A stretch of DNA of 64,000 bases from an uncultured Candidatus Saccharibacteria bacterium (GTDB taxonomy: Bacteria > Patescibacteriota > Minisyncoccia > Phycocordibacterales > UBA5272), in contig CAZWMQ010000001.1 of assembly GCA_964635125.1 (NCBI GenBank), positions 211,272-275,271 on the forward strand, given 5' to 3'. Positions 1 through 42,421 of this stretch are shown in pieces (the stretch's first letter is position 1; each line of letters opens with the position of its first letter). Below the pieces are notes generated by a model. It did not search any database and was not told the origin of the DNA. It worked only from the letters and a program-made list of their open reading frames with translations. The position numbers and the translations under genes were made by a program.

Positions 1-108
1 AAAGCCGGAAAGCCCGAAATGTATGCCAGCTTTGAAGTTATGAAAAAATATCAAAAAGAATTACAAGAGGTAGCAGGGAAGGCAGGGTTACAGAAGACAG
101 TGGAGAGA
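1..108 (+). CDS. 3' end of an unidentified gene (partial, begins upstream of window)
   Basis: Frame 1 is open from the window edge to TAG at 106-108 (...ASFEVMKKYQKELQEVAGKAGLQKTVER*). No recognisable motif. Confidence 0.3.
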
Positions 109-148
109 TAGGGAAATGTATTAAGAAATAAATATAATAATAAGTAAT

Positions 149-355
149 ATGTTAGGTTATATAGCTTTAGGAATTTTAATAGCAGCTTATGCTTTTCTAT
201 ATTTTAAAAAAGAAAATGTATTTTTTATAGTAAATTTAATAGCTTCGATAGGACTTTGCATACATTCAATTCTAATTTCTGATATTCCAAATTCTATAGC
301 TAATGGATTTATAGTTTTAGTACTTGGATTAACTATAATTCGAAAGTATAAATAA
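149..355 (+). CDS. small hydrophobic membrane protein (hypothetical)
   Basis: 68-aa ORF with two predicted TM helices. No recognised family. Confidence 0.3.
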   Translation: MLGYIALGILIAAYAFLYFKKENVFFIVNLIASIGLCIHSILISDIPNSIANGFIVLVLGLTIIRKYK

Positions 356-451
356 TTTAAAAAATAGAAACATAACAAAAATCTAATGTGTAAGCATTAG
401 CTTTTTGTTTTTAATTCTTTATATTTTGGTGTATAATAGAATAGTAAAGAT

Positions 452-541
452 ATGGAAGAATTACAAAAAGAAATCAAAGAGTTTATAAATGAGCGTGATT
501 GAAATCAATTTCATAATCAGTTATTAAAAATATTGGAATAA
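452..541 (+). pseudogene. MazG-like NTP pyrophosphohydrolase N-terminal fragment (truncated)
   Basis: ATG at 452. Translation with TGA=Trp is MEELQKEIKEFINERDWNQFHNQLLKILE*. It matches the conserved first helix of MazG/YpjD-type proteins (EFxxERDWxQFH) but stops at TAA after 29 aa. Confidence 0.35.
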
Positions 542-573
542 ATATAAAAAATATCTAGTCTGGTAAATGTAAG

Positions 574-1458
574 CTAATAATTTGTAATTAAAACTTCTTG
601 GGTCAATGCTCCATTTCTTGTGTTTGTATGATAATTTGAATTTGTATAATCCTTATCAATTCGGTGAACCTTGTATCCATTATTTTTAATCCAAGCATTT
701 AGTAAATCGTTCTTTTTTTCTTTGTGGGTTAATACATTTGATAAAGCAAATTTTATTTTTCGTTTATCTAAACTGTCTAAAATCGATAATAGCTTTTGCT
801 CTTGTTCGTTGTTCCAACCAGTAAAACCTCGTTTACCGTCATTGTATGTGCCAATAGTTATTAAATACGGCGGATCGCAATAAACAAAATCATCTTTGCC
901 AAGTACAGAAAAATCAAATTTATCAAAATCCACTTTGGTAAAAATAATTTTTTTACTATTGAGGGCATTTATGAAATCAATAAGATTTTTCTTGATATTC
1001 GCATTATAACGACTACGGTTTTTACCAAAAGGCGTGTTAAATTTATGGTCGCTATTAAATCTGATTTGATGGTTGAATGAAAAAAAGGTTAAAACCAAAA
1101 GATCAAGTGGATTTTTATTTTTATTATATTGCTCACGCAATTTTCCATAACCTGCCATGTTAGTAAGCGATAAATCAAATTTTTTGATTGTATTATCAAT
1201 GTATTTCAAAATTTCATTTTCAGGTTTTTTCGTCAAGAGTTGAAATATATCAATTAAATAAATCAAATTATCGTTTAATATAATTTCATTGGCTTTTATA
1301 TTGATACCTACATTCGCTCCGCCGGCAAACAAATCAACAAAACAATTTATCTTTTGAGGGAATAAAGGAAAAATTTGCGGTAAAATTTTATATTTGCCAC
1401 CGATATAATTTAATGGTGATTTGATAAAATTCGCCATAGTATTAAGTCCAAAAATCAA
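574..1458 (-). CDS. Dam-family (alpha-class) N6-adenine DNA methyltransferase, R-M associated
   Basis: Motifs PLNYIGGK / FVDLFAGGANV (SAM binding) precede DPPY (catalytic), which is the alpha-class order. Intact in the standard code. The likely start is MANFIK at 1434, just after the upstream gene's stop. Confidence 0.8.
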   Translation of the reverse strand: MIFGLNTMANFIKSPLNYIGGKYKILPQIFPLFPQKINCFVDLFAGGANVGINIKANEIILNDNLIYLIDIFQLLTKKPENEILKYIDNTIKKFDLSLTNMAGYGKLREQYNKNKNPLDLLVLTFFSFNHQIRFNSDHKFNTPFGKNRSRYNANIKKNLIDFINALNSKKIIFTKVDFDKFDFSVLGKDDFVYCDPPYLITIGTYNDGKRGFTGWNNEQEQKLLSILDSLDKRKIKFALSNVLTHKEKKNDLLNAWIKNNGYKVHRIDKDYTNSNYHTNTRNGALTQEVLITNY

Positions 1459-2848
1459 TTAAGCGAGTAATTGCATCCTTAAAGATTTCTGGTGCTTTAA
1501 TTCCAAGTATCAAATCGCCGTTTTTACTCAGAACAAAACCGACTTGAATTTCAAATTTTTCTGCTTTATCAATTCCGCCATACAAAACAACAGTACGAAT
1601 AATTGAAAAGTTAGGATAATTTGGCTTTATATACAAATTCTCAAAAGCATCAAAGAGCGATATCTGATCAATTCCAGTAAGTTTATTTTTATACATTTCG
1701 CCCTCAATATTCACGACTTGTTTTCGTAGCATATCTAAAATTGTCAAGTCTGGCAGATTGATAATTTTAGATTTGTCACCTGCTTTGTATTTTTCTCGGT
1801 CAATATATTTTTCAATGGTAATGTGTTCGCCCGTAGAAGCTAAAAAATAACCTCGCTCACTGCCAGCGTGATTTTCATAAATTGAATAACCTTCCGTAAA
1901 ACTCTCAACTACCAGATGAACGAAAATCGTGCCAAGTTTTTCGCCGTCTTTATCATATTTCCAATATTCTTGATGTGGTTTTGGCTGTGGAACAGACAAG
2001 GCATCTAATGAAATTCTGATTTGGTTGGCTATAAGAATAAACTTGTTCTTATAGCCTAGATGTTTCTGTGATAAGCCGTGTTTCGTAATTACAATTTCTT
2101 TGTTCCAGCCAAGTTTGCGTAATGTTGCTGAAATAATGCTTAAAGCTCCAATATTTGGGTCGTGTGATAATCCGCCAGACTTAAATAAACGACCTGAGAT
2201 TAAAATTTTATCGGTAATTTTTGTTATCTCAATCGGCACGTTACCTTTTGGCGGTTTTCGCATTGAGTTTTTGTAGTTAATCAATTCATCAACAGACGAA
2301 AACGGCTTAAAAATTTTGTCATCTAACTTTTTTCCCACAATCTCAACGCCGTTTGTTAAAAGCATTTTTGTGCCAAAAATATTAGTTTCGGTCGGCGTTT
2401 CTTTTTGATCAATTTGCAAGTTGTAAAGCATAACCTTGTGAACAGACGAATAAAAACTTTCCAAATAGACAAACTTTGAACACCTTTGATAAACGCCAGT
2501 GTTTCGGCTTTCACTATCATCGGTTTTAGTTTCCTCTATCGCATAATCTGGTTTATCGGTAGTTGGGTTAGGTTCTTTGTTTTGATAAAAAACCAGAAAA
2601 TCTACGAAACTTGAATAGCCACTAACTGTTTTGATATAGATTTTGTTAATACGATTACAGCGAAAACCCGTTAATTCGTAGGTAAAAGAAAATTTGCCAT
2701 TTTCTAAAATAGGTAAAATTCGTAAATTATCAACAAATCCTGAAAATTTATTATCATTGGCAAATTTTTCCAGAATTTGCCTCAAAACTTCAAGTTTTGG
2801 GCGTTCTTCGGTCAATATCCACAGATTTTTTGATTTATCCTCGTTCAT
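1442..2848 (-). CDS. putative type II restriction endonuclease (cognate R of the adjacent MTases); specificity unknown
   Basis: 468-aa ORF co-oriented with, and directly upstream of, the Dam-like MTase, and divergent from a second MTase. No motif I can assign. Intact in the standard code and GC-richer than the surrounding sequence. Confidence 0.4.
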   Translation of the reverse strand: MNEDKSKNLWILTEERPKLEVLRQILEKFANDNKFSGFVDNLRILPILENGKFSFTYELTGFRCNRINKIYIKTVSGYSSFVDFLVFYQNKEPNPTTDKPDYAIEETKTDDSESRNTGVYQRCSKFVYLESFYSSVHKVMLYNLQIDQKETPTETNIFGTKMLLTNGVEIVGKKLDDKIFKPFSSVDELINYKNSMRKPPKGNVPIEITKITDKILISGRLFKSGGLSHDPNIGALSIISATLRKLGWNKEIVITKHGLSQKHLGYKNKFILIANQIRISLDALSVPQPKPHQEYWKYDKDGEKLGTIFVHLVVESFTEGYSIYENHAGSERGYFLASTGEHITIEKYIDREKYKAGDKSKIINLPDLTILDMLRKQVVNIEGEMYKNKLTGIDQISLFDAFENLYIKPNYPNFSIIRTVVLYGGIDKAEKFEIQVGFVLSKNGDLILGIKAPEIFKDAITRLIDFWT

Positions 2849-2882
2849 TACGCCTAATTATAGCATAATAACAGGTTAAACT

Positions 2883-3719
2883 TTGCGGTTATGGTATAAT
2901 TTTTATATGAGTAGAGGGTACATAAATCAAATCTATAATAAAGATTGTGTAAGTGGTATGACCGACTTAATTCAATCTGCCATAACTGTTGATTTGGTTG
3001 TCGCTGACCCACCCTATGTTATTTCCAGAGAGTCAAATTTTCATACAATGAAAGACCGTAAGAACGCAAGAACTGGAACTGCATTTGGTGCTTGGGATGA
3101 AGAATTTGATAATAGCAACTGGATTGAGAAATCTTTTAGCGTGTTAAAAGACGGTGGCTCGCTGATTGTGTTTAATGACTTCAAAAAAGTTTCTGACATT
3201 ATTGCGATTGCTACAAAGTTTGGATTTGAATTCAAAGATGTAATTGTTTGGGAAAAAACGAATCCAATGCCTCGCAATCGTGATAGACGATATGTACCGT
3301 CATTAGAGTTAATGATCTGGTTTGTCAAAAAACAAAAAGCAAAATGGACGTTCAATCGACAGGACAGTTCTTATCAAAGCCCCGTAATGCGATATGCGTC
3401 TGAAAGTGGCGGTGCGTTTAAGCGTTATCATCCTACTCAAAAGCCCATTAAATTGATTGAGGAAATAATAAGAATCCATAGTAATTCAGGTGATTTGGTT
3501 CTTGATCCATTTATGGGTTCAGGAACAACAGCGATATCTGCATTAAACGCTGGTCGTAATTATGTTGGTTATGAACTGGATAAATCATACTTTGATGTTC
3601 TTACAAATCGCATAGCAGAACACACAAGCAATCATTCAAAAAGAGTTCTTATTGAAAAAGATGATTTTCCAGATATTAAAGTAAAGGTTGCACAGAAATC
3701 TTTATGGCAAAGTTATTAG
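2883..3719 (+). CDS. beta-class DNA methyltransferase (N6A/N4C, DpnA/M.MboIB-like)
   Basis: DPPY (aa ~43) lies N-terminal to HPTQKP and DPFMGSGTT, which is the beta-class motif order. Intact in the standard code, with 7 Trp all encoded by TGG. The start may be the internal MSRGY at 2907. Confidence 0.8.
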   Translation: MRLWYNFYMSRGYINQIYNKDCVSGMTDLIQSAITVDLVVADPPYVISRESNFHTMKDRKNARTGTAFGAWDEEFDNSNWIEKSFSVLKDGGSLIVFNDFKKVSDIIAIATKFGFEFKDVIVWEKTNPMPRNRDRRYVPSLELMIWFVKKQKAKWTFNRQDSSYQSPVMRYASESGGAFKRYHPTQKPIKLIEEIIRIHSNSGDLVLDPFMGSGTTAISALNAGRNYVGYELDKSYFDVLTNRIAEHTSNHSKRVLIEKDDFPDIKVKVAQKSLWQSY

Positions 3720-3855
3720 TCATTAATTATTTTTTTTATTCCTTTCAGTTTTGGTCGGTTATTTTGTGAGATTTTTTGTTGAAATAAAATACCTAGAAAA
3801 ATATTTAGTTTCTTTCTTCCCTTTAACTCCAAAATCTGCTATATTTAATCAAAAT

Positions 3856-4971
3856 ATGTCTTTATCTATTGGTATAGTTGGTCTGCCGAATGTTGGAAAG
3901 TCCACACTCTTTAATGCTTTAACTAAAAATTGTGTCCCAGCGGAAAATTATCCGTTCTGCACTATTGATCCATCGGTTGGTATAGTTGAAGTAGCTGATG
4001 AGCGACTTTATGCCTTAGCCAAAATGAGTAATAGCAAAAAAACCATCCCAGCCATTGTCGAGTTCGTAGATATTGCAGGACTGGTCAAAGGGGCAAGTGA
4101 GGGAGCAGGACTTGGTAATAAATTCTTACAACATATTCGTGATACCGATGCCATACTAGAAGTAGTGCGAATCTTTGAAGATGATAAGCAAATCCATGTC
4201 GAGAATAGAATTGATCCACTGCTTGATATACAGATAATCAATTTAGAATTAATCTTAGCAGATATTGCCACAGCCAATAAAAGACTTGAAGCAATTGAGA
4301 GAGATGTGAAAAAAGGAGATAAAGTTGCTATTAAATTTAAAGAAGCCATGCTAAAAATCAAAAAGTGTCTTGAAGAAGATAGACTTGCGAATAGACTTAT
4401 TGTAGAAAATAGATTAGACGAAGAAGAAATAAAATTAGTAAAAGAATTACATCTTATAACTATGAAGCCAATACTATATGCCTTAAACAAAAAAGCTGGA
4501 GCCAAAAATCTGGATGAGATAAATGATACAAGATATGAAGAGTTGATGAAATATTTTAAAGAGAATAATTTTAATTATTCTAAAATAGATGCGAAAGTGG
4601 AAGACGATTTAAAAGATTTTGAAGGAGAGGAAAAGGAATTAATGCGAAGCGAACTCGCTAACGGTGTCGTTGATGACGGGATTAAAGAATTAATAAATGA
4701 GAGCTATAAGATGTTAGGACTTGAGACTTATTTCACCACTGGTGAAGACGAGACTCGTGGTTGGACTATTAAAATTAACTCAACCGCACCTGTCGCAGCA
4801 TCTGCTATACATACTGATTTTCAAAATAAATTTATCCGAGCTGAAGTTGTGGCCTGCGAAGATTTACTTTCAGCTGGTAGCTATAAAGTCGCTCGTGAGA
4901 AAGGTCTAGTGCGAACCGAAGGTAAAGAATATATTGTGAAAGATGGAGATGTGATAGAGTTTCGGATATAA
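3856..4971 (+). CDS. ychF: ribosome-binding ATPase YchF/OLA1
   Basis: G1 motif [12 protein letters not shown], and [30 protein letters not shown]-terminal TGS-like VIEFRI. Confidence 0.85.
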
Positions 4972-5478: not shown

Positions 5479-6432
5479 ATGACTTATAGAGATGAAGATT
5501 TTAAAAATAATGATAAGACAAAATACACTTATCCTGCATATGAAGACCTCTTAAAAAAAGAAGTGGAGGCTAATTTGCTATTGTCTGATGAAGAAATGAA
5601 AGAAATAGCCGAAGAAGAAATTAAAAATATAAATATTCAAAAAGAAAATCTTTGGCAAGAAATGAGCGCAATTCTTGATAAGGATAAAGAGGAAGAAGAA
5701 AAACCTAAAGCCTTAATCTTAGAAATTGCTTCTGGAGCTGGAGGAGATGAATCATCACTTTTTGCCGCCGAGCTTGCGCTTATGTATCAAAATTTTGCTT
5801 TAAAAAATAAATGTAGCTTTGAAAAATTAGATGAATCAATCTCGGATGTTGGTGGATATAAAGATGTATCTTTTGAGATTAAAGGAGTAAGAGCTTGGGA
5901 TATATTTAAATATGAAATGGGTGTACATCGTGTGCAACGTGTGCCAGATACAGAGAAGAATGGCCGAGTGCATACTTCAACAGTGACAGTAGCCGTCATG
6001 CCAATTCGAAAAATAAAAAAGATAACTATTAATCCAGCAGATATTGAAATGGAGACATCACGAAGTGGTGGCGCAGGCGGACAAAATGTAAATAAAGTTG
6101 AAACGGCTGTTCGAATTATTCATAAGCCCACAGGGATTGCTGTTAAATGTACAGTCGAAAGAAGCCAGTTAAAGAATCGGGAAAAAGCGATGGAAATGTT
6201 ACAAGCCAGACTTGAGCAGATTGAAGAAGAAAAATTTGCTCAAGAAAACTCTGACAATAAAAGAGATCAAGTTGGAACTGGCGATAGGAGTGAGAAGATT
6301 AGGACTTATAATTATCCGCAAGATAGGATTACCGATCACCGAATTAAAGAATCTTGGCACAATTTGCCTAAAATCATGTCTGGCGAAATGGGGGAAATAG
6401 TTGAAGCCCTTCAAAATTATAAAGGTGAATGA
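5479..6432 (+). CDS. prfA: peptide chain release factor 1
   Basis: GGQ motif ([17 protein letters not shown]) and an RF1-type PxT tripeptide context (RVPDTE). Confidence 0.85.
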
Positions 6433-10147: not shown

Positions 10148-10930
10148 TTATCTATTGCGACCTCGTTGGGCGCGACGGAGTTTTTTCTTTGATTTCTGAT
10201 TAGCTTTTTTAGTCTCAGCTAATCTTTTATCAAAGTCAATCTCTCTACCATTGGAATCAATTATTTTTTTCGCACAGAGGTCGATAATATCTCCAGGAAA
10301 TAGGTGACTACTCCACCATTTCCCAAGATAATTCATGTAGATTTTTTGATCTACAAGTTTTCCTCTTCGGTTGGCAATTGGGAGCCCTAACTCTTCTGCT
10401 TTTACTCCCCAATCATTAAGTTTAGGAAGAAAATAGGCAAGAGATTGGCCTTTTTCTACCACATAACGACATTTCTCAACCGAGCCCCAATCGGAGTAGT
10501 TAGAGAAATGAATCGGAGATAGCATGCCGTTTCCACAGGCGAGAAAGACAGTGTCTTTCTTACATGGGTCATTAACTATAATGATAAGCTCGTTTTTAAA
10601 CTTACCACCATAGGTTTTACCATCTCCAGACAAAACTTTTTCCACTTTACCAGACCCAAAAACGAATCTGATATTCTTCTCATTAGTCACACATTGATAA
10701 TGTGACATAATATTTTTGGTTAAAAGTTTACGATACTTTTGAACCAGGGCTTTTTGTCCGACGGTATCATTTTTTTCACCGAGATTATGGAATTCCTGTA
10801 AAGGAAATCCAATGGTGAAAGTCGTATCTATTGGCTTTACATCCCATATGGGGCTTTTTTCTTTATTTTTACAAGCAAAGAAAAAAGTTGATATTACGGC
10901 AATACTTAAAATAAAAAAAATTTTTTTCAT
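10148..10930 (-). CDS. lipoprotein, hypothetical (possible Cys-dependent hydrolase)
   Basis: Signal peptide with a lipobox-like FFAC, the motif LACGNG, and a basic C-terminal tail. No family assigned. Confidence 0.5.
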   Translation of the reverse strand: MKKIFFILSIAVISTFFFACKNKEKSPIWDVKPIDTTFTIGFPLQEFHNLGEKNDTVGQKALVQKYRKLLTKNIMSHYQCVTNEKNIRFVFGSGKVEKVLSGDGKTYGGKFKNELIIIVNDPCKKDTVFLACGNGMLSPIHFSNYSDWGSVEKCRYVVEKGQSLAYFLPKLNDWGVKAEELGLPIANRRGKLVDQKIYMNYLGKWWSSHLFPGDIIDLCAKKIIDSNGREIDFDKRLAETKKANQKSKKKLRRAQRGRNR

Positions 10931-11091
10931 TTTTTATATATTTAATTGGTTAATAGAGACTTCAGTTCTAAAAACTCTATTAACCAATTAAAAGGAGTTA
11001 AAGAACAATAATTTTCATATATTATCATAATATATTAAGGTTGTCAAGCAAAAAGTCTTTATTTTATATGTTAAATTTAAATTATAATTAT

Positions 11092-12168
11092 ATGAAAAAT
11101 GTAGCTATTAATGGTTTTGGAAGAATTGGGCGAGCTTATTTAAAATTAGTCTTGAGTGATAAAGTGGTAGAAGAGAATTTAAATATTGTGGCAATTAATG
11201 ATCTGGGTGATTTAGATAATTTAATTTATCTTTTAAAGTATGACACAGTTTATCGTCGTGATATTTTTAAAAGCATATCTAGTAGAGTGGTGAGTGATAA
11301 TGAGAAATATTTAGTAATTGAATTTATTGATAATAGTAAAAAAGAAATTCGATATATTTCGGAGAAAGATACTAGTAAATTTATTCAAAATAAGATCTGA
11401 GGTAATTTAGGAGTAGATATTGTAGTGGAGTCTACTGGATTATTTATTAGTGCGGATAAAGCTTATTTTCATATTGAAGCTGGGGCTAAGAGAGTGGTAA
11501 TCACTGCTCCTACGAAAGATTTAAAAGATGCGAAGCGAGTAGCCGACACAGTCTTAATGGGAGTTAATGAAGAATATTTAAAGAAAAATATAATCACTAG
11601 TAATGCTTCTTGTACCACTAACTCTATTTCTCCGGTAGTGGCTATTTTAGATGAGACTTTAGGAATTGAGAAAGCAGTTCTTAATACAGTTCATTCTTAT
11701 ACTGCTTCGCAAAAAATTGTCGACGGTCCAGATAATAAGAATTGACGATTAGGTAGAGCTGGAGCTCAGAACATAATTCCTTCAACCACTGGGGCGGCAA
11801 TTGCTTTAACTAAAGCCTTTCCTAAATTAGATAGTTTATTTGACGGTATTTCAATCCGAGTTCCAACTGTAGCTGGAAGTATTGCTGATCTTACTTTTGT
11901 TGCCAAAAGAGACACCACAGTTGAAGAAGTTAATCGTATTTTAAAAAATGCTTCCCAAACTGAGAAGTGAAAGAAATTATTAGCCGTGACCGATGAACAA
12001 TTAGTTTCTTCAGATATTTTAGGATTAAGATTTGCTAGTATTGTGGACTCCTTAAACACTAAAGTAGTCGGTGGAAATCTAGTAAAGGTTTTAGCTTGAT
12101 ATGATAATGAGATAGGATACACTAATACTTTAGTAGAGCATACGATGAAAGTAGCAAAAATAATTTAA
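11092..12168 (+). CDS. gap: glyceraldehyde-3-phosphate dehydrogenase
   Basis: NGFGRIGR and SNASCTTN. Four in-frame TGA codons at conserved Trp positions (KIWGNLGVD, DNKNWRLGRAGAQNIIPSTTGAA, VLAWYDNEIGY). Confidence 0.9.
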
Positions 12169-28816: not shown

Positions 28817-31735
28817 ATGACTAAGATAAATTATCAAGCTATAGAAAGCAAATGGCGAAAATATTGGGAAAGTATTAATCTAAATCAGACTAAGACCAGT
28901 TTCAAAAATGGTGAAAAGAAATTTTATATTCTAGATATGTTTCCATATCCATCTGGAGAAGGATTACATGTTGGACATCCTAAGGGTTATATTGCCACTG
29001 ACATATATTCTCGATATATGAAGATGAATAATTATAATGTTTTACATCCGATGGGATTTGATGCCTTTGGATTACCGGCTGAACAATATGCCATTAAACA
29101 TAAATTAAACCCTAAAATAGCTACCGAAAAGAATATTCAAAGATATAAAGAACAATTAGATATGCTCGGGCTAGATTATGATTGGGAGCGAGAGGTTAAT
29201 ACTACTGATCCTAATTTCTATAAATGAACACAATGAATGTTTAAGCAAATGTATAAAGTTGGCCTTACCTATCAATCTAATGAACCAATTAATTGATGTC
29301 CAAGTTGTCAGACCGGGTTAGCTAATGAAGATCTAGATGGTAATGTCTGTGAGCGATGTGGAAGTATAGTTGAGAAAAGACCACTTCGTCAATGGGTAAT
29401 TAGGATTATCGATTACGCCGATCGTTTATTAGATGATCTTGATAAATTAAATTGAGAACCACATATTAAAGAATTACAGAGAAATTGAATTGGCAAAAGT
29501 ATTGGGAGTGAGATAGAGTTTCAGATTGTGAGAGCTAATATATTTGGTTTTGATATAAGAACTAATTATGACACTGATGAAGAGTTATTTAAGACTGGTA
29601 GGAAAAGATCAGTAGCTATTATTAGAATTAAAGATACAGATAAATTTTTAGGATTTATTAAAAGAGACGATAGAGATATTCATTTAGCTGGTGGTGGAAT
29701 TGAGAAAGGAGAAAATTCTAGAGAAGCCGCTGAAAGAGAGGCTTTTGAAGAAATGGGAATTAAAAATCTCAATCATTTAGGAAGCCTCGGCTCATTTCGT
29801 GGTTTCGAGTATTACGAATTATTTGAGGTGGAAGAAAATTATAAAAAAAATTTATCAGGTTCATCAGAATTGGAAAGAGATGAAAATTCTTTTATTGAGT
29901 TTACAAAAGAAGATATATTAAAAAATAATTGGCAACAAGTTTCTTATGTTTTTAATAATTTAGACTCTTTGTTTAATAATAGTGTTTTAGAAAATAAATT
30001 AAAAATCTTCACAACTAGAGCCGATACTTTGTACGGGGCGACTTTTATGGCTATATCATATTCCTTAGCTAAACAATGGATTAAAGAAGGTTGAGTTCCT
30101 AGCGAGGAGATTAGAAAGTTTATTGAAAAATTAGAGAATGATGAGAAAGGTAGATCAGTAGAGTTTGATATGAATAAATTAGAAAAAGAAGGAATTGATA
30201 CGGGAATTAAGGCCATTAATCCAGTAAATAATGAAGAGATTCCAATTTATATTGCTAATTATATATTAAGTGATTATGGAACTGGAGCAATTATGGCTGT
30301 GCCAGCTCATGATGAGCGAGATTATGAATTTGCAAAGAAATATGGTTTAGAAATTAAAAAAATCATTCTTGGTGAGCATGATGAAGAGAATCAATTATTT
30401 ACTGGGCATGGAATATTAATTAATTCAGGAGAATTTGATGGAATGAATAGTGAAGAAGTTAAAATAAAAATTACCGAGAAAGTTCACGGAAAGATTGTCT
30501 CTCAATATAAATTAAAAGATTGAGTATTTGCTCGTCAACGATATTGGGGAGAACCATTTCCAATTGTTTTTGATGAAAATAATCAGAGTTTCGCGGTGGC
30601 TGATACTGAATTACCAATTAAATTACCAGAGATAGAAAATTATGAACCCTCTGGAGATGGACAATCGCCATTAGCTAAGATTAAAGATTGAGTAGAAGTG
30701 TATGGGTTTATAAATAGCGAAGGAGAGTTTGAGAGTTTAGAGAAAGATAATCCTAAAGCTAAAAAGTTTTACCGCGAAACCAACACTATGCCACAATGAG
30801 CTGGATCTAGTTGATATTATTTAAGATATATTGATCCAAATAATCAAGAGAGATTTGTAGGTAAAGAATTAGAAAAGGTTTGAGATCCGGTGGATTTCTA
30901 TGTGGGTGGAGCTGAGCATGCTACAAGGCATTTAATCTATGCCAGATTCTGGCATAAGTTCTTATTTGATCAAGGATTGGTCGAATATGATGAGCCGTTT
31001 TTAAAATTACAAACGGTAGGCTTAATAATGGCCGAAGATGGACGAAAGATGAGTAAGAGATATGGCAATGTAGTTAATCCAGATGAGGTGGTTAAAGAAT
31101 ATGGAGCTGATACTATGCGAGCTTATGAGATGTTCATGGGGCCATTTGAGAAATCTACTGCTTGAAGCACGAAAAATATCTTAGGAGTATATAGATTCTT
31201 AGAGAGAGTTTATGATTTATCTTTAAAGTTAAAAAATAATTATGGAAGCGATAATAGAGAAGTTGAAAGAGTAATTAACGAAAGTGTTGAGAAAGTTGGT
31301 AATGATATATTAGAGTTCAAGTTTAATACAGCTATCTCACAGTTGATGATCTGTTTAAATACTCTAGAAGATAATTTGAAAAAAGGAGAGAGTTTTTCTA
31401 AAGAAAGTTTAGGGAAGTTTATAAAGATACTTTCACCATTTGCGATATTTATTACCGAAGAGATTTGGCAAGAAGTATTAGGAAATCAAACTTCAATTCA
31501 TCAAGAATCTTGGCCAAAATTTGATAAAAATAAAACCATAGTAGAGGAGATAGAATTATCAATTCAAATTAATGGAAAGTTTAGAGGAACAATTAAAGTT
31601 AAAGTTAATTTAGATAAAGAGGAAGCAATGAAAGAAATTAAATCAACAGAAATCTTTAAGAAATATGTGGAAGATGAGAATAAGATTAAAAATATTATCC
31701 TAGTGAAAAATCGTTTAATTAATATCATTATTTAA
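28817..31735 (+). CDS. leuS: leucyl-tRNA synthetase carrying an internal Nudix-box insertion
   Basis: HIGH motif (HVGHPKGY) and KMSKR(Y). 12 in-frame TGA codons, all at conserved Trp positions ([43 protein letters not shown]...). The reading frame is continuous across track ORFs 28817, 29528, 30170, 30890 and 31343. Confidence 0.9.
29534..30001 (+). other. ~150-aa Nudix-hydrolase-like domain inserted within LeuRS, just before the CP1 editing domain
   Basis: It lies between [16 protein letters not shown] and [15 protein letters not shown] (the CP1 start). It carries a perfect Nudix box GX5EX7REUXEEXGU = [23 protein letters not shown], preceded by an IHLAGGG loop. Confidence 0.7.
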
Positions 31736-35787: not shown

Positions 35788-36342
35788 ATGAAAGAAAGAA
35801 ATCTAGCTTTTATCGATGTGGAGACTACGGGGACTAATCCAGATCGCCATGAGATTATTGAATTAGCTCTAATTGTAGTTAAACAAATTGAAAGAGAAGG
35901 TCTAGGTCCTAAGATTGAGATTATTGGCGAATATGAATGGAAGATTAAACCAGAACATTTAGAGGATGCTGAAGAAGAAGCTTTACGTATCAATGGTTAC
36001 AATGAAGTTGATTGGATGTTTGCGGTATCTCTTAAGAAGGCTATGGAGGATTTTAATAATAAAGCTGAAAGTTGTACTTTTGTATCACATAATTTAACTT
36101 TTGATTATAGCTTTGTTCAGAAAGCCTATCAAAAGACTGATATTGAGAGTAAAATGCATTATGCAAAACTCGATACTATTTCAATTGCTTTTGCTCGCCT
36201 TTATGACGCACCTCAAGCTGATAAGTTTTCTTTGAAATTTCTTTGCGAATTATTAAAAGTCGAAAATAGTAAAGCACATACCGCCTTAGCTGATACAAGA
36301 GCGTTAGTTGAAGTGTACAAGAAATTAATGCGAGCGGTGTAA
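35788..36342 (+). CDS. DEDDh 3'-5' exonuclease (DnaQ-like)
   Basis: Exo I FIDVETTG, Exo II HNLTFD, Exo III HTALADTRAL. Confidence 0.75.
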   Translation: MKERNLAFIDVETTGTNPDRHEIIELALIVVKQIEREGLGPKIEIIGEYEWKIKPEHLEDAEEEALRINGYNEVDWMFAVSLKKAMEDFNNKAESCTFVSHNLTFDYSFVQKAYQKTDIESKMHYAKLDTISIAFARLYDAPQADKFSLKFLCELLKVENSKAHTALADTRALVEVYKKLMRAV

Positions 36343-36368
36343 TATAAATTTAATTGATATAAAAAAAT

Positions 36369-36986
36369 ATGAAAATAATTTTAATAGGCGGAGCACCAAC
36401 AACAGGAAAATCAACTTTAGCAAAGGATTTAGCTAAGCATTTCGATATTCCTTGGATTTCGACTGATCAAATAAGAGAAATTATGAAAGCCGTAGCAAAA
36501 GAAGAAGAATATAAGAATATTTTTAATACTAAAGGGTTTAATGTTAAAAGTTTTTATAAAAAATATTCTCCAAAAGAAATATCAAATATGGAATTTGAGC
36601 AAGGCAAGGAGGTTTGGAAAGGAGTAAAAGCTTTGATAAAACATGGCTGGGTATGGAGAGATGGATTTGTTTTAGAAGGTTTAAATATTTTACCAAGTTT
36701 AATAAATAGGGATTTTAAAGATGATAAGAATATAAAAAGTGTTTTTCTTATAGATAAAAATGAGGAAAGAATAAGAAAGGTAATTTTTGAGCGAGGATTA
36801 TGGGACGATCCAGAAAAGTATCCAGATTATATAAAAGAAAGTGAAATTGAATGGGTAAAATTATTTAATGATAAGATAACTAAAGAAGCCAAAAAATATA
36901 ATATGCCTTGTATTGAGGTTTTAGATCACAAAAAGGTATTTCAGAATACTTTAAAAATTTTAAAGGCAAAGAATAACACACCTTAA
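36369..36986 (+). CDS. P-loop NTPase / putative kinase
   Basis: Walker A GGAPTTGKST. No further family assignment. Confidence 0.5.
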   Translation: MKIILIGGAPTTGKSTLAKDLAKHFDIPWISTDQIREIMKAVAKEEEYKNIFNTKGFNVKSFYKKYSPKEISNMEFEQGKEVWKGVKALIKHGWVWRDGFVLEGLNILPSLINRDFKDDKNIKSVFLIDKNEERIRKVIFERGLWDDPEKYPDYIKESEIEWVKLFNDKITKEAKKYNMPCIEVLDHKKVFQNTLKILKAKNNTP

Positions 36987-37028
36987 AAAGGTTTTACTTT
37001 TTATATGTTTTAATATATATTTATTTTA

Positions 37029-38084
37029 ATGCAAAAAAGTAATTCAAAAAAGCAAAAAGTATTTGTTGGTATGTCGGGAGGTGTAGATTCTTCGGTCTCA
37101 GCTTTACTTCTGAAAAATCTTGGTTATGAAGTTACTGGTGTCTTTATTAAGGTTTGGCAACCCGACTTTATAGAGTGTACTTGGAGAGAAGATAGACAAG
37201 ATGCGATGCGAGTCTGTGCGCAATTAAATATACCTTTTATAACTTTAGATTTAGAGAAAGAATATAAAAAAGGTGTAATTGATTATATGGTGAGAGAATA
37301 TAAAGTCGGCCGAACTCCTAATCCCGATGTATTTTGTAATAAAGAAGTAAAGTTTGGAGCATTTCTTAATTGGGCGATCAAAAATGGAGCTGATTATGTT
37401 GCGACTGGACATTATGCTAGAATTAAAAATAAACAATTACTTCGCAGCAAAGATCTTAGTAAAGATCAAAGTTATTTTCTCTGGACTCTAAACTCTAAAC
37501 AACTCTCTAAAATATTATTCCCAGTTGGTAATTTATTAAAGACTGAGATACGAGAAATCGCTAAAGAAAATAATTTATATACTGCTAGCAAGAAAGATTC
37601 TCAAGGATTATGTTTTATTGGGAAAATCGAGATTAAAGACTTTCTTGGAAAATATTTAAAAAATAAATCTGGAATTATAATTAATGAAAATACTAAAAAA
37701 GAAAATGGTAAGCATAAAGGAATTGAGCTTTACACTATAGGTGAGAAAATTAATGGAAAATACATCGTTCGGAAAGATATAAAGAAAAATATTTTATATG
37801 TAGTTGATAATTTAGAAGAAGATAATTTAATAAATAACGAAATAAAGCTGACCGAGATTAATTTTACAGAAAATTTAAAAGTTAAGGGAATATATACACT
37901 TCAAGAGAGATATCATAGCCAAGAAGTTAAAATTAAAATAATAGAATTAAAAATAAATAAAAGTAGATCAGAATTATCTTTAAAATATAAATTATTAAGT
38001 TCTAATAATCTTCTATCTGTATCGGGACAATCTTTAGTGTTTTATAACAAACAAACCTTAATCGGCGGAGGGATTATTAAATAA
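37029..38084 (+). CDS. mnmA: tRNA-specific 2-thiouridylase MnmA
   Basis: PP-loop GMSGGVDSSV, and CNKEVKFGAFLNWA...GADYVATGHYA. Confidence 0.85.
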   Translation: MQKSNSKKQKVFVGMSGGVDSSVSALLLKNLGYEVTGVFIKVWQPDFIECTWREDRQDAMRVCAQLNIPFITLDLEKEYKKGVIDYMVREYKVGRTPNPDVFCNKEVKFGAFLNWAIKNGADYVATGHYARIKNKQLLRSKDLSKDQSYFLWTLNSKQLSKILFPVGNLLKTEIREIAKENNLYTASKKDSQGLCFIGKIEIKDFLGKYLKNKSGIIINENTKKENGKHKGIELYTIGEKINGKYIVRKDIKKNILYVVDNLEEDNLINNEIKLTEINFTENLKVKGIYTLQERYHSQEVKIKIIELKINKSRSELSLKYKLLSSNNLLSVSGQSLVFYNKQTLIGGGIIK

Positions 38085-38214
38085 TATTATTACGACATAT
38101 AAAAATAATTTGTAAAATCTATACTTACTAATTAGCTTGATATAATAATTGTATTACTAGCTATTATTAATAAACTTAAATGTTAGTAATTAATTTAATT
38201 AACAATTTATTTAT

Positions 38215-38898
38215 ATGAAAAAATATTTAGCCGAATTAGTCGGAACTGCAATTCTAGTTATAATTGGTTGTGGTACGGCGATTTTCGCTGGGAGTAGTGT
38301 AGGAGTATTAGGAGTTGCTTTAGCTTTTGGATTAGCTTTAGTTTTAGTTACTTATTTAATTGGTACTTTATCGGGGGCTCATGTTAATCCAGCAGTGACT
38401 ATCGCTTTAGCTTTAGTTCAAAAATTTCCTTGGAATAAAGTAGCTGGATATGTTATCGCTCAAATTTTAGGGGCATTAATCGGAGCGTCAATTTTATATG
38501 CTATAGCTTCAAATTTGGCTAATGCTAGTCAACTTATAATAAATGGAGGTTTTGCTACTAATGTTTTACATGGAGGAGTATCTGTAACAGCCGGTGCATT
38601 GGTTGAGATATTTATGACTATGATATTCTGTTTAGTAGTATTAGCTACCACTAGAAGTAATTGGCCATCAACTTGGACTCCAATTGCTTCAGGGCTTGCT
38701 CTATTTGCAGCTAATTTAGTAGCAATACCTTTGACCGGAGCTTCAATCAATCCAGCTAGAAGTATTGGTCCAGCTTTAGTCTCGGGTCACACTTCAGGAC
38801 TTACCTTATTTATAGTCGCTCCATTAGTTGGAGCAGTATTGGCTTACTTTGTACATATTTTTGTTATAGGGAAAGGGCATTTTCATTACGAAAATTAA
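38215..38898 (+). CDS. aquaporin / MIP-family channel
   Basis: Two NPA boxes (HVNPAVT and INPARS) and six TM helices. GC-richer than its neighbours, with 3 Trp all encoded by TGG. Confidence 0.85.
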   Translation: MKKYLAELVGTAILVIIGCGTAIFAGSSVGVLGVALAFGLALVLVTYLIGTLSGAHVNPAVTIALALVQKFPWNKVAGYVIAQILGALIGASILYAIASNLANASQLIINGGFATNVLHGGVSVTAGALVEIFMTMIFCLVVLATTRSNWPSTWTPIASGLALFAANLVAIPLTGASINPARSIGPALVSGHTSGLTLFIVAPLVGAVLAYFVHIFVIGKGHFHYEN

Positions 38899-38950: not shown

Positions 38951-39154
38951 CTTTATTATATTAATTATGATATATTTAAAGTTATATTGACGAGATGCTT
39001 ATCTTCTTTCCATCAGGTTTTGAGTTTTTGGGTGACTCAAGTCAATAATAATTTCGAAATTATTATTAATAAAATTTAAAAAACTTCTTAATATTACACT
39101 ATATTTTTAGTTTTTTTATTGTCTGTATTTTTTAATATCAACCTTTTATTTTAT

Positions 39155-42100: not shown

Positions 42101-42421
42101 AAATCTCAAAATGGAGGCCAGAGATTTGGAGAAATGGAAGTCTGAGCACTTGAAGGTTATGGAGCAGCGCATACCTTAAGAGAGATGTTAACTATTAAAA
42201 GTGACGATATTGTTGGTCGAACAGATACTTACAATAGTATTATTAAAGGAGAACAGATTAAGAAGCCAAATGTCCCCGCCTCTTTAAATGTTTTATTAAA
42301 TACTTTACGAGGATTATCTTTAGATATAATTCCACTAATTAAAGATAATAAAAGAAATAAATTCAACAAAGAAGAGATTTATTTACAAGAAGATTTAATA
42401 GAATTAAAAGAAAATTTATAA
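39155..42421 (+). CDS. rpoB: DNA-directed RNA polymerase beta subunit
   Basis: Conserved blocks throughout. In-frame TGA at 42143-42145 is the universal Trp of [22 protein letters not shown] stop at 42419-42421. Confidence 0.95.

What the first reader, a model, noticed from the sequence alone, without database searches (positions are those of the whole stretch)
452..3719. Left-end accessory island: complete type II R-M cassette (alpha Dam-like MTase + putative REase + beta MTase) of probable foreign origin, next to a MazG-like gene fragment
Two DNA MTases of different architecture flank a 468-aa ORF. One is alpha-class Dam-like (NYIGGK...DPPY). The other is beta-class DpnA/M.MboIB-like (DPPY...HPTQKP...FMGSGTT). 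A two-MTase DpnII/MboI/LlaDCHI-type layout would suggest a GATC-type target, but the middle protein (468 aa) is larger than those endonucleases, so specificity is open. The three genes are visibly GC-richer than the surrounding sequence. They contain no TGA-Trp codons at all: about 18 Trp, all TGG, and intact in the standard code. Native neighbours use TGA freely. Immediately to the left is a 29-codon remnant of a MazG-like pyrophosphohydrolase.
Basis: partly seen in the sequence, partly recalled or inferred. Interest (0 to 1): 0.5.

Follow-up and report, generated by a model that had tools for sequence, protein, structure and literature searches.

The report
Acquired BtsCI-like type IIS restriction cassette
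A three-gene restriction-modification module, whose nuclease is a relative of the known enzyme BtsCI, was inserted by horizontal transfer into the genome of a tiny Patescibacteria bacterium that reads TGA as tryptophan; the module itself is an ordinary kind of bacterial defence system.

The parts
113..3855 (.). Segment absent from the closest relative genome (L016). It holds the small membrane ORF, the MazG-like remnant, the three-gene R-M cassette and 136 nt upstream of ychF.
   Evidence: In blastn, window 7-110 matches L016 7893-7996 and window 3851-4187 matches L016 7996-8332. In L016 the 85-aa gene stops 3 nt before the ychF ATG. Linkage of the 85-aa gene to ychF is conserved in more than 20 more distant Paceibacteria loci, and none of them carries M1, R or M2.
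149..355 (+). 68-aa predicted membrane protein (p68) of unknown function. It lies inside the inserted segment but is not part of the cassette shared with other genomes.
   Evidence: ORF listed. Only a weak Imp-YgjV match (E 0.032, below cutoff). Found only in the same genome's contigs L001 and L002.
452..541 (+). 29-codon remnant resembling the N-terminus of a MazG-like dCTP pyrophosphatase, with a TGA (Trp) codon at 500-502.
   Evidence: The four best PDB hits are all dCTPase/RS21-C6 (E 0.056-0.13), with EF..ERDW.QFH aligned. Pfam gives no hit. No continuation appears in any frame at 542-573 or 3720-3855.
574..1437 (-). M1: alpha-class (D12/Dam-family) N6-adenine DNA methyltransferase of 287 aa. 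It corresponds to the C-terminal domain of fused FokI/BtsCI-type methylases and is predicted to modify the CATCC strand.
   Evidence: PF02086 2.3e-39 and TIGR00571 171 bits. PADLOC PDLC03287 8.4e-107, positions 359-641 of 646. The short D12 methylases of the two-D12 cassettes hit the same half, and their long partners hit positions 1-339. 57-58% identical to those short methylases. Gene start.
1442..2848 (-). R: 468-aa type IIS restriction endonuclease of the BtsCI/BsmI/Mva1269I group. It is a single chain with two PD-(D/E)XK-type sites: D98-X6-E105-X15-Q121-R122 (bottom strand) and P366-D367-X14-E382-G-E384 (top strand).
2849..2906 (.). 58-nt divergent intergenic region between R and M2, presumed to hold both promoters. 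There is no controller (C) protein gene.
   Evidence: Sequence (TATAAT at 2893-2898). The consensus promoter scan of the region is not above chance (19 found against 21.1 expected).
2907..3719 (+). M2: beta-class N6-adenine DNA methyltransferase of 270 aa. It takes the place of the FokI-N-domain-type methylase and is predicted, by elimination, to modify the GGATG strand.
   Evidence: PF01555 3.4e-48. The best solved relative is M1.HpyAVI (5HEK), 5.7e-56. PADLOC MTase_II PDLC03371 1.3e-70. It is always divergent from R in the related cassettes L004-L011.

Best explanation
Window 574-3719 is a self-contained type IIS restriction-modification cassette of the BtsCI kind.

How it works:
- R is a monomeric endonuclease with two different PD-(D/E)XK-type active sites in one chain.
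- By analogy with BtsCI, BsmI and Mva1269I, the N-terminal site (D98, E105, Q121-R122) nicks the bottom strand. The C-terminal site (P366-D367, E382, E384) then nicks the top strand, close to an asymmetric recognition site.
- Because the site is asymmetric, each strand needs its own methyltransferase. M1 (alpha/D12, the counterpart of the C-terminal domain of M.FokI/M.BtsCI) protects one strand and M2 (beta class) protects the other, both by N6-adenine methylation.
- The most likely site is GGATG/CATCC, cut as in BtsCI (2/0).

How it got here:
- The cassette arrived by horizontal transfer from the pool of standard-code bacteria, where close copies sit in Saccharibacteria-like and other genomes.
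- It landed in the slot between a conserved 85-aa gene and ychF of a Parcubacteria/Paceibacteria-like host that reads TGA as Trp.

Shown: the identities of the three proteins, conservation of the catalytic residues, the fold, the insertion, and the mobility.

Inferred: activity, the recognition sequence, which methylase modifies which strand, and the cut position.
For: - R matches the PADLOC REase_II profile PDLC03445 at 1.7e-65. That profile equals BtsCI, and P0181 is named BtsCI, with the published nicking variants as its cluster mates.
- Full-length BLASTP to BtsCI gives 34% identity at 2e-72, and all six mutagenesis-defined catalytic residues align. They are invariant across 47 homologues, except E384, where the family consensus is K.
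- The BtsCI paper describes 463-472-aa homologues at 33% identity, each with two separate methylases matching the N and C domains of M.BtsCI, and predicts that they cut GGATG.
- Relatives of R at 56-64% identity (Riemerella, Bartonella and Psychrobacter plasmids) have exactly that pair: a long D12 methylase matching profile positions 1-339 and a short one matching 356-642.
- M1 matches the C half as strongly (356 bits) as those short methylases do (365-378 bits).
- Prevotella intermedia Pin17FI and Pin25611FI have genes of the same sizes (R 466/475 aa, M 355 aa, M 311 aa) and a SMRT methylome showing m6A at GGATG/CATCC (PMC5608340).
- A beta plus alpha(D12) methylase pair modifying GATG and CATC has been shown experimentally in MhoVII (PMC12898733).
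- Insertion.
- Mobility: the cassette is 90.4% identical in nucleotides to L004 over window 575-3704 only, with a different neighbourhood. It is 77% identical to the human oral metagenome contigs L005-L008, which give two further contexts, one beside a phage integrase.
- Cassette GC is 33-35% in hosts whose flanks are 42-50% GC. The L004 copy uses TGA as the M1 stop codon, so that host uses the standard code.
Against: - No biochemical or methylome data exist for this organism.
- The link to Pin17FI rests on gene sizes and architecture. I could not obtain its sequence.
- Identity to BtsCI is only 34%, and to the two-D12 cassette nucleases 56-64%, so the specificity could differ.
- M2's closest solved relative (M1.HpyAVI) belongs to a different system, so M2's target is assigned by elimination only.
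- GGATG is not clearly avoided in the window. It occurs 43 times against 62.7 +/- 8 in dinucleotide shuffles, but the observed/expected ratio is 0.78 and the rank 58 of 512 under a Markov model.
- No flanking repeats, integrase or transposase were found to explain how the cassette inserted.
- With only one close relative, the age of the insertion cannot be resolved.
Confidence: 0.85

Rival explanations
1. Same BtsCI-family cassette, but with a different recognition sequence from GGATG. For example, a shorter GATG/CATC site as in MhoVII, or another asymmetric site, with the swap to a beta-class M2 marking the change.
For: The FokI-N-type methylase is replaced by an unrelated beta-class enzyme. 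The nucleases of the beta-type cassettes form their own identity group, at least 73% identical to one another against at most 64% to the two-D12 type. A beta/alpha pair acting on GATG/CATC exists. Identity to BtsCI is 34%.
Against: M1 scores as well against the FokI/BtsCI-type C-domain profile as the methylases of the canonical two-D12 cassettes do. 56-64% identity between nucleases usually goes with the same specificity (general knowledge of type II enzymes, not tested here).
Confidence: 0.25
2. A DpnII/MboI/LlaDCHI-type GATC system: a Dam-like methylase, a DpnA-like methylase and a GATC endonuclease, as the first reader tentatively suggested.
For: M1 passes the TIGR00571 dam-family cutoff, and its best solved relative is T4 Dam (2e-45). 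M2's best PDB entry is labelled 'DpnA' by its depositors.
Against: R has no similarity to any Pfam REase family, including the DpnII family, and is instead a BtsCI homologue with a BsmI fold. The gene order is M2 divergent from R-M1, not M-M-R. M1 matches the FokI/BtsCI-type C-domain profile at 356 bits, against 166 bits for the 259-position orphan-methylase profile PDLC03722, which may be T4-Dam-like given that T4 Dam chains are also 259 aa (an inference from length), and 58-59 bits for EcoDam and DpnM. Entry 5HEK is M1.HpyAVI, not a GATC enzyme (my knowledge of that entry).
Confidence: 0.03
3. The cassette is a decaying or domesticated relic. The methylases act as orphan or regulatory enzymes and R is inactive.
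For: There is no direct evidence of activity. Small-genome episymbionts often carry degraded genes, and a truncated gene lies next door (452-541).
Against: All three ORFs are full length with intact SAM-binding and DPPY motifs. Both catalytic sites of R are intact, and R is 93% identical to a copy in another genome. None of the genes ends in TGA, which this host would read through.
Confidence: 0.1
4. The cassette is native and vertically inherited, and the closest relative lost it.
For: Only one close relative (L016) covers the junction. Cassette GC is close to the host's.
Against: Adjacency or near-adjacency of the 85-aa gene and ychF, without any R-M gene, holds in more than 20 more distant relatives. 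A 90%-identical cassette sits in an unrelated context in a 44%-GC standard-code host, and homology stops at the gene ends. The cassette has no TGA-Trp, whereas 34% of native Trp codons are TGA.
Confidence: 0.04

Closest known systems
BtsCI (Ureibacillus thermosphaericus; GGATG 2/0), a type IIS REase of the BsmI/Mva1269I/BsrI group
   Same: Homologous over the full length (34% identity, 2e-72). Similar size (468 against 465 aa). The N-terminal TEERPK motif is shared. The bottom-strand site D-X6-E-X15-QR and the top-strand site PD-X14-E-X-E have identical spacing.
   Different: BtsCI pairs with one fused two-domain D12 methylase (M.BtsCI, 62% identical to M.FokI). Here there are two separate genes, and the N-domain type is replaced by a beta-class enzyme. 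BtsCI has a roughly 31-aa insertion before the first catalytic site.
Cup_ORF1489 / Nfl_ORF1032 and Pin17FI / Pin25611FI-type systems (Campylobacter upsaliensis, Neisseria flavescens, Prevotella intermedia): a 463-475-aa R plus two separate D12 methylases
   Same: Same R size class and the same 33-34% identity to BtsCI. The family consensus PD-Xn-EXK is shared. The P. intermedia systems have methylome-confirmed m6A at GGATG/CATCC. Window R is 56-64% identical to nucleases from cassettes of this architecture (L012-L014).
   Different: Those systems run M-M-R in one direction with two D12 methylases. The window has M2(beta) divergent from R-M1. I could not compare sequences directly with the named proteins.
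BsmI / Mva1269I (GAATGC), solved structure 9EZD
   Different: BsmI is about 670 aa, shares only about 10% sequence identity and has a different recognition sequence.
MhoVII of Mycoplasma hominis (GATG/CATC)
   Same: It pairs a beta-class (YhdJ-like) with an alpha D12 adenine methylase, one per strand of a GATG-containing asymmetric site.
   Different: The MhoVII methylases are fused into one protein. Its nuclease (524 aa) belongs to a separate 'MhoVII family', and some relatives are annotated RE_AlwI. Window R has no RE_AlwI match.
DpnII / MboI / LlaDCHI GATC systems
   Same: Two adenine methylases of alpha and beta class accompany one nuclease.
   Different: The nuclease family, gene order and nuclease size all differ. 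M1 is closer to the FokI-type C domain than to DpnM or EcoDam.

Membership tests
BtsCI/BsmI/Mva1269I group of type IIS REases (two catalytic sites in one chain) | Sequence homology to a characterised member | tested here: met
   BLASTP to BtsCI (P0181 = ACZ62642.1) gives 34% identity at 2e-72 over the full length. The BtsCI-derived PADLOC profile matches at 1.7e-65.
BtsCI/BsmI/Mva1269I group of type IIS REases (two catalytic sites in one chain) | Non-canonical bottom-strand site (S/K)(D/E)-X6-E-X14/15-QR near the N-terminus | tested here: met
   The site is T97-D98-X6-E105-X15-Q121-R122. D98, E105, Q121 and R122 are invariant in 47 homologues, and they align with BtsCI D121, E128 and Q144-R145.
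BtsCI/BsmI/Mva1269I group of type IIS REases (two catalytic sites in one chain) | Second, top-strand site PD-Xn-E-X-K/E in the C-terminal half | tested here: met
   The site is P366-D367-X14-E382-G383-E384, which aligns with BtsCI P387-D388-X14-E403-A-E405. The family consensus is EGK.
BtsCI/BsmI/Mva1269I group of type IIS REases (two catalytic sites in one chain) | Fold like the solved member BsmI | tested here: met
BtsCI/BsmI/Mva1269I group of type IIS REases (two catalytic sites in one chain) | Asymmetric recognition site, cleavage next to it, and strand-specific nicking by each site | not testable with these tools
   This needs enzyme assays or run-off sequencing. Two strand-specific methylases next to R are consistent with an asymmetric site.
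GGATG/CATCC-specific systems (FokI/BtsCI/Pin17FI isospecific) | Methylase homologous to the C-terminal (CATCC) domain of M.FokI/M.BtsCI | tested here: met
   M1 hits positions 359-641 of the 646-position fused profile PDLC03287 at 8.4e-107. That this profile represents M.FokI/M.BtsCI is inferred from three things: its length, the split N and C hits by the two-D12 cassette methylases, and the BtsCI paper.
GGATG/CATCC-specific systems (FokI/BtsCI/Pin17FI isospecific) | Methylase homologous to the N-terminal (GGATG) domain of M.FokI/M.BtsCI | tested here: not met
   No such gene is present. M2 is beta class (PF01555) and takes its place.
GGATG/CATCC-specific systems (FokI/BtsCI/Pin17FI isospecific) | m6A at GGATG and CATCC in host DNA; cleavage at GGATG | not testable with these tools
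   No long-read methylome is available here. Site-frequency analysis is uninformative.
DpnII/MboI/LlaDCHI-type GATC systems | DpnII/MboI-family endonuclease of about 280-290 aa | tested here: not met
   R is 468 aa, has no Pfam REase hit and is homologous to BtsCI.
DpnII/MboI/LlaDCHI-type GATC systems | DpnM/Dam-type GATC methylase | tested here: inconclusive
   M1 passes the broad dam-family model. It is, however, far closer to the FokI-type C-domain profile (356 bits) than to DpnM or EcoDam (58-59 bits).
MhoVII-type systems | Beta (YhdJ-like) plus alpha (D12) adenine methylase pair | tested here: met
   The classes of M2 and M1 were established. Here they are two genes rather than a fusion (one search gives the MhoVII architecture).
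MhoVII-type systems | MhoVII-family nuclease (about 510-575 aa, related to RE_AlwI enzymes) | tested here: not met
   R is 468 aa, has no RE_AlwI match in Pfam and belongs to the BtsCI family. No direct sequence comparison with R.MhoVII was possible.

The most novel reading that the evidence does not exclude
The cassette is a hybrid variant of the BtsCI family. The FokI-N-type methylase has been swapped for a beta-class enzyme, possibly with an altered or shortened recognition site. It has crossed a genetic-code boundary, moving from standard-code bacteria into a Patescibacteria lineage that reassigned UGA to Trp only recently. The 84%-YchF relative still has TGG at the orthologous positions. 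The TGA-free cassette would then be a datable marker of gene flow into a recoded genome. The host would be a case of UGA-to-Trp in a phylum where the literature I could search does not report it.
Probability: 0.3. Interest if true: 0.6.

Novelty: new member of a known kind. Interest (0 to 1): 0.3.

Why it matters
- **Annotation.** The work puts a name and a mechanism on a large, widely transferred protein family. The word-indexed search gave 2,506 hits at E<=0.001 among the 8,000 candidates scored, and the exhaustive search gave 440 clusters at 50% identity. The family occurs in Bacteroidota, Saccharibacteria, Proteobacteria plasmids and streptococcal prophages. Public records that carry a name call these proteins 'hypothetical protein', and the window protein matches no Pfam or NCBIfam model.
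- **Biotechnology.** BtsCI relatives are a source of strand-specific nicking enzymes. A variant with a different methylase partner is a cheap candidate for a new or relaxed specificity.
- **Biology of the host.** The cassette shows that a recoded (UGA=Trp) episymbiont-type genome still takes up defence modules from standard-code neighbours. It also gives a clean example of insertion at a conserved gene junction.

In itself the cassette is ordinary.

Tried and rejected
- **Site avoidance.** GGATG/CATCC looks depleted against dinucleotide shuffles (43 against 62.7 +/- 8). Under a maximal-order Markov model the observed/expected ratio is 0.78 and the rank 58 of 512, and GATC is no more informative. 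I rejected this as evidence for specificity.
- **Composition as proof of foreignness.** GC, GC3 and the lack of TGA are only weakly distinctive. I kept them as supporting evidence only.
- **Flanking repeats or mobile-element genes around 113-3855.** Nothing convincing was found. The promoter and terminator scan is at chance level.
- **The rest of the MazG gene.** No continuation appears in any frame on either side of the cassette. No ERDW..FH-type gene lies near ychF in 160 related loci. Pfam gives nothing for the 29-mer.
- **Closer relatives of the host in metagenomes.** The best YchF identity was only 67%, so the insertion cannot be dated. L017 (89%) breaks inside ychF.
- **The BtsCI locus, to compare M.BtsCI directly.** It is not on record.
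- **Names for close homologues.** None was informative.
- **Direct sequence comparison with Pin17FI, Cup_ORF1489, Nfl_ORF1032, M.FokI and R.MhoVII.** This was not possible, because those sequences were not retrievable with the remaining capped searches.
- **Sequence searches of R against PDB chains, Pfam and NCBIfam.** All returned nothing.


Full report
**1. What is in the sequence**

- On the minus strand a 468-aa ORF (R, 2848 to 1442) is followed 4 nt later by a 287-aa ORF (M1, ATG 1437 to 574). The listed 294-aa form starts at an upstream TTG and creates an apparent overlap.
- On the plus strand, 58 nt from the R start, lies a 270-aa ORF (M2, ATG 2907 to 3719). The TTG at 2883 gives the listed 278-aa form. 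Independent gene calls on the same contig use the ATG starts.
- M1 is an alpha-class D12/Dam-family adenine methyltransferase (PF02086 2.3e-39; TIGR00571 171 bits). M2 is a beta-class N6/N4 methyltransferase (PF01555 3.4e-48).
- The 29-codon ORF at 452-541 reads MEELQKEIKEFINERD-W(TGA)-NQFH. Its four best PDB matches are all MazG-like dCTP pyrophosphatases, but only at E of about 0.06. Pfam does not see it.

**2. The host and its genetic code**

- TGA is a Trp codon in the native genes. Five TGAs in the LeuRS N-terminus align with W in the Mycoplasma mobile enzyme. TGAs in RpoB, RpoC and GAPDH fall at conserved W positions. Five TGAs in AspRS, RsmH and a DsbA-like gene align with TGG in the closest relative.
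- Across 48 native genes TGA:TGG is 50:96.
- By its YchF neighbours the host is a Parcubacteria/Paceibacteria-type member of the Patescibacteria. The closest match is 84% to a 'Candidatus Parcubacteria bacterium' MAG, followed by 58-64% to Paceibacterota, Taylorbacteria and Nomurabacteria.
- It has penicillin-binding proteins and MraZ/RsmH, so it is not a mollicute.

**3.

- The cassette has 12 Trp codons (13 with the TTG extension), all TGG, not about 18.
- A binomial with p = 0.34 gives P of about 0.005. TGA use is strongly clumped, though. Twelve of 32 native genes with at least two Trp have none. The native run 35788-38898 (RNase T-like exonuclease, a kinase-like protein, MnmA, an aquaporin) has 15 TGG and no TGA. 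Only 2 of 44 native runs of 13 or more Trp codons are TGA-free, and both are that locus.
- GC is 32.7% against 29.8% for the rest of the window. M1 is below the mean at 28.1%, and native ychF, rpmE and prfA are 35-37%.
- GC3 of R and M2 is about 2 sd above the native mean, and GC3 of M1 less than 1 sd.
- These signals point the right way but would not carry the case alone.

**4. Identity of the middle ORF**

- R has no Pfam, NCBIfam or PDB sequence match. It does hit one PADLOC type II REase profile, PDLC03445, at 1.7e-65.
- An exhaustive search of 1.8 billion cluster representatives returned, among 440 relatives, a 465-aa protein, P0181.
- P0181 carries S120-D121, E128, Q144-R145, P387-D388, E403 and E405. 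These are the residues whose mutation produced Nt.BtsCI and Nb.BtsCI (PMC2831314).
- P0181 is recorded as ACZ62642.1 'BtsCIR' from Ureibacillus thermosphaericus, and its cluster mates are the published nicking variants. It fills the PADLOC profile end to end at 1100 bits.
- Window R aligns with it over the full length (34% identity, 2e-72). D98-X6-E105-X15-Q121-R122 sits on the bottom-strand site. P366-D367-X14-E382-G-E384 sits on the top-strand site, with the same spacings.
- In an alignment of 47 homologues these residues are invariant, except E384, where the family consensus is K, giving the EXK form.
- R is therefore a BtsCI/BsmI/Mva1269I-group endonuclease. For that group, ordered cleavage (bottom strand first, then top) by two distinct sites has been shown experimentally.

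**5. The methyltransferases and the likely target**

- The BtsCI paper noted 463-aa and 472-aa hypothetical proteins 33% identical to BtsCI. Each is flanked by two separate methylases matching the N and C domains of the fused M.BtsCI (itself 62% identical to M.FokI). The paper predicted that they cut GGATG.
- Relatives of window R at 56-64% identity have exactly that layout. They occur in Riemerella anatipestifer, a Bartonella plasmid and a Psychrobacter plasmid. Their long D12 methylase (352-354 aa) covers positions 1-339 of the 646-position fused profile PDLC03287. Their short one (284-308 aa) covers positions 356-642.
- Window M1 covers positions 359-641 with a comparable score (356 bits against 365-378) and is 57-58% identical to those short methylases.
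- The window has no N-type methylase. M2, a beta-class enzyme, sits in its place. This holds in all the closest cassettes (L004-L011, R identity 73-93%).
- Prevotella intermedia Pin17FI and Pin25611FI have gene sizes that match the two-D12 layout (R 466/475 aa, M 355 aa, M 311 aa). SMRT sequencing showed m6A at GGATG/CATCC (PMC5608340).
- A beta plus D12 pair methylating GATG and CATC, one strand each, was shown experimentally for MhoVII. Its nuclease belongs to a different family (PMC12898733).
- From memory of the FokI literature, the C-terminal domain of M.FokI modifies CATCC.
- Taken together: M1 most likely modifies CATCC, M2 by elimination modifies the GGATG strand, and R cuts next to GGATG. 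I put about 0.65 on GGATG. I leave about 0.25 for a related but different asymmetric site, because the methylase swap and the 34-64% identities allow it.
- GATC is not supported. R is unrelated to DpnII/MboI nucleases and the gene order differs. M1 is much closer to the FokI-type C domain than to DpnM or EcoDam.
- Counts of GGATG in the window are uninformative.

**6. Foreign origin**

- The arrangement is not an assembly artefact. It recurs on contigs from three sequencing runs.
- In the closest relative genome (L016) the 85-aa gene that ends at window 112 stops 3 nt before the ychF start codon. Window 7-110 and 3851-4187 align with L016 7893-7996 and 7996-8332. Window 113-3855 therefore has no counterpart there.
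- The 85-aa gene lies upstream of ychF on the same strand in more than 20 more distant Paceibacteria loci, with 0-2.3 kb between them. None of those loci contains M1, R or M2. The cassette was therefore gained here, not lost there. The slot is variable in those relatives.
- The same cassette is 90.4% identical in nucleotides to one in another metagenome (L004). The homology runs from the M1 stop to near the M2 stop and no further. The neighbours there are an ABC transporter, CysRS and RecR.
- Copies at 77% identity occur in human oral metagenome contigs in two more contexts, one beside a phage integrase. A 66% copy lies in a Saccharibacteria MAG.
- More distant relatives sit on small mobilisable plasmids and in Streptococcus prophages.
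- In those hosts the cassette is 33-35% GC against flanks of 42-50%. It keeps its own composition wherever it goes.
- The L004 copy ends M1 with TGA, so that host uses the standard code. This explains why the cassette contains no TGA-Trp.
- Segments 113-573 (a 68-aa membrane ORF and the MazG-like remnant, 21% GC) and 3720-3855 are also missing from L016 but are not part of the shared cassette. Their origin is unresolved. The TGA-Trp codon in the remnant suggests it once belonged to a gene resident in a recoded genome.

**7. Verdict**

- The system is a type IIS BtsCI-family cassette with a mixed alpha/beta methylase pair. It is a new member, at most a minor architectural variant, of a known kind.
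- Activity, recognition sequence and strand assignment remain inferences. A methylome or simple expression tests would settle them.
- The more unusual thing seen along the way is the host's UGA-to-Trp code in a Patescibacterium, together with TGG at the orthologous positions in an 84%-YchF relative. A 2026 survey lists UGA-to-Trp only for Bacillota, Pseudomonadota, Verrucomicrobiota and Actinomycetota.

Noticed in passing
whole window; examples 28817-31735 (LeuRS), 39119-42421 (RpoB), 11041-12168 (GAPDH); L002 against L016: The host is a Parcubacteria/Paceibacteria-like patescibacterium that reads TGA as Trp (TGA:TGG 50:96 in 48 genes). In its closest relative (YchF 84% identical) the five orthologous positions examined are TGG. 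Nine real genes there contain no in-frame TGA and none ends in TGA. A 2026 paper (PMC13462651) lists UGA-to-Trp only for Bacillota, Pseudomonadota, Verrucomicrobiota and Actinomycetota, so this may be an unreported and recent reassignment. No tRNA-Trp gene lies in the window, and RF1 is at 5479-6432.
   Followed up: partly
window 28817-31735 (+), residues 262-336 of the 972-aa product: The leucyl-tRNA synthetase carries a NUDIX hydrolase domain (PF00293, 1.8e-9, above the gathering score) with a clear Nudix box ([24 protein letters not shown]). It is inserted between the catalytic core and the editing domain. The gene also holds 12 of the window's TGA-Trp codons.
   Followed up: partly
family of window 1442-2848 (P0001-P0120, P0121-P0270): The window's BtsCI-like nuclease matches no Pfam or NCBIfam model, and the public records that carry a name call its homologues 'hypothetical protein'. 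Yet there are 2,506 hits at E<=0.001 among the 8,000 candidates scored, and 440 clusters at 50% identity, across Bacteroidota, Saccharibacteria, Proteobacteria plasmids and streptococcal prophages. This is an annotation gap.
   Followed up: partly
L013 (Psychrobacter plasmid pPspP11G5c) 2530-3933 and 3989-5404: Two tandem paralogues of the nuclease gene (53% and 58% identical to window R) follow two D12 methylases on a 13.6-kb mobilisable plasmid. This could be a duplicated or heterodimeric form of the enzyme.
   Followed up: no
L015 (Streptococcus phage Javan105) 1640-9155: A 46%-identical homologue of R sits in a prophage next to an RloC-type anticodon nuclease and three DNA methyltransferases, forming a small defence cluster.
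   Followed up: no
window 35788-38898 (+): Four consecutive native genes (RNase T-like exonuclease, kinase-like protein, MnmA, aquaporin) contain 15 TGG and no TGA, unlike the rest of the window. So TGA-Trp use is very uneven between genes.
   Followed up: partly
window 10148-10930 (-): A 260-aa lipoprotein-like ORF with no Pfam match has the highest GC3 of any sizeable gene in the window (0.31), with 5 TGG and no TGA. It is possibly another acquired gene.
   Followed up: no
window 113-573 and 3720-3855: The 68-aa membrane ORF, the MazG-like remnant and the 136-nt leader of ychF are also absent from the closest relative, but they are not part of the mobile cassette. In more distant relatives the slot between the 85-aa gene and ychF varies from 0 to 2.3 kb and often holds a roughly 192-aa flavodoxin-like oxidoreductase. 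This suggests a recurrent insertion slot.
   Followed up: partly
L008 3703-4650: In one human oral metagenome contig the 83%-identical cassette lies 450 nt from a phage-type integrase gene, a possible vehicle for its movement.
   Followed up: no
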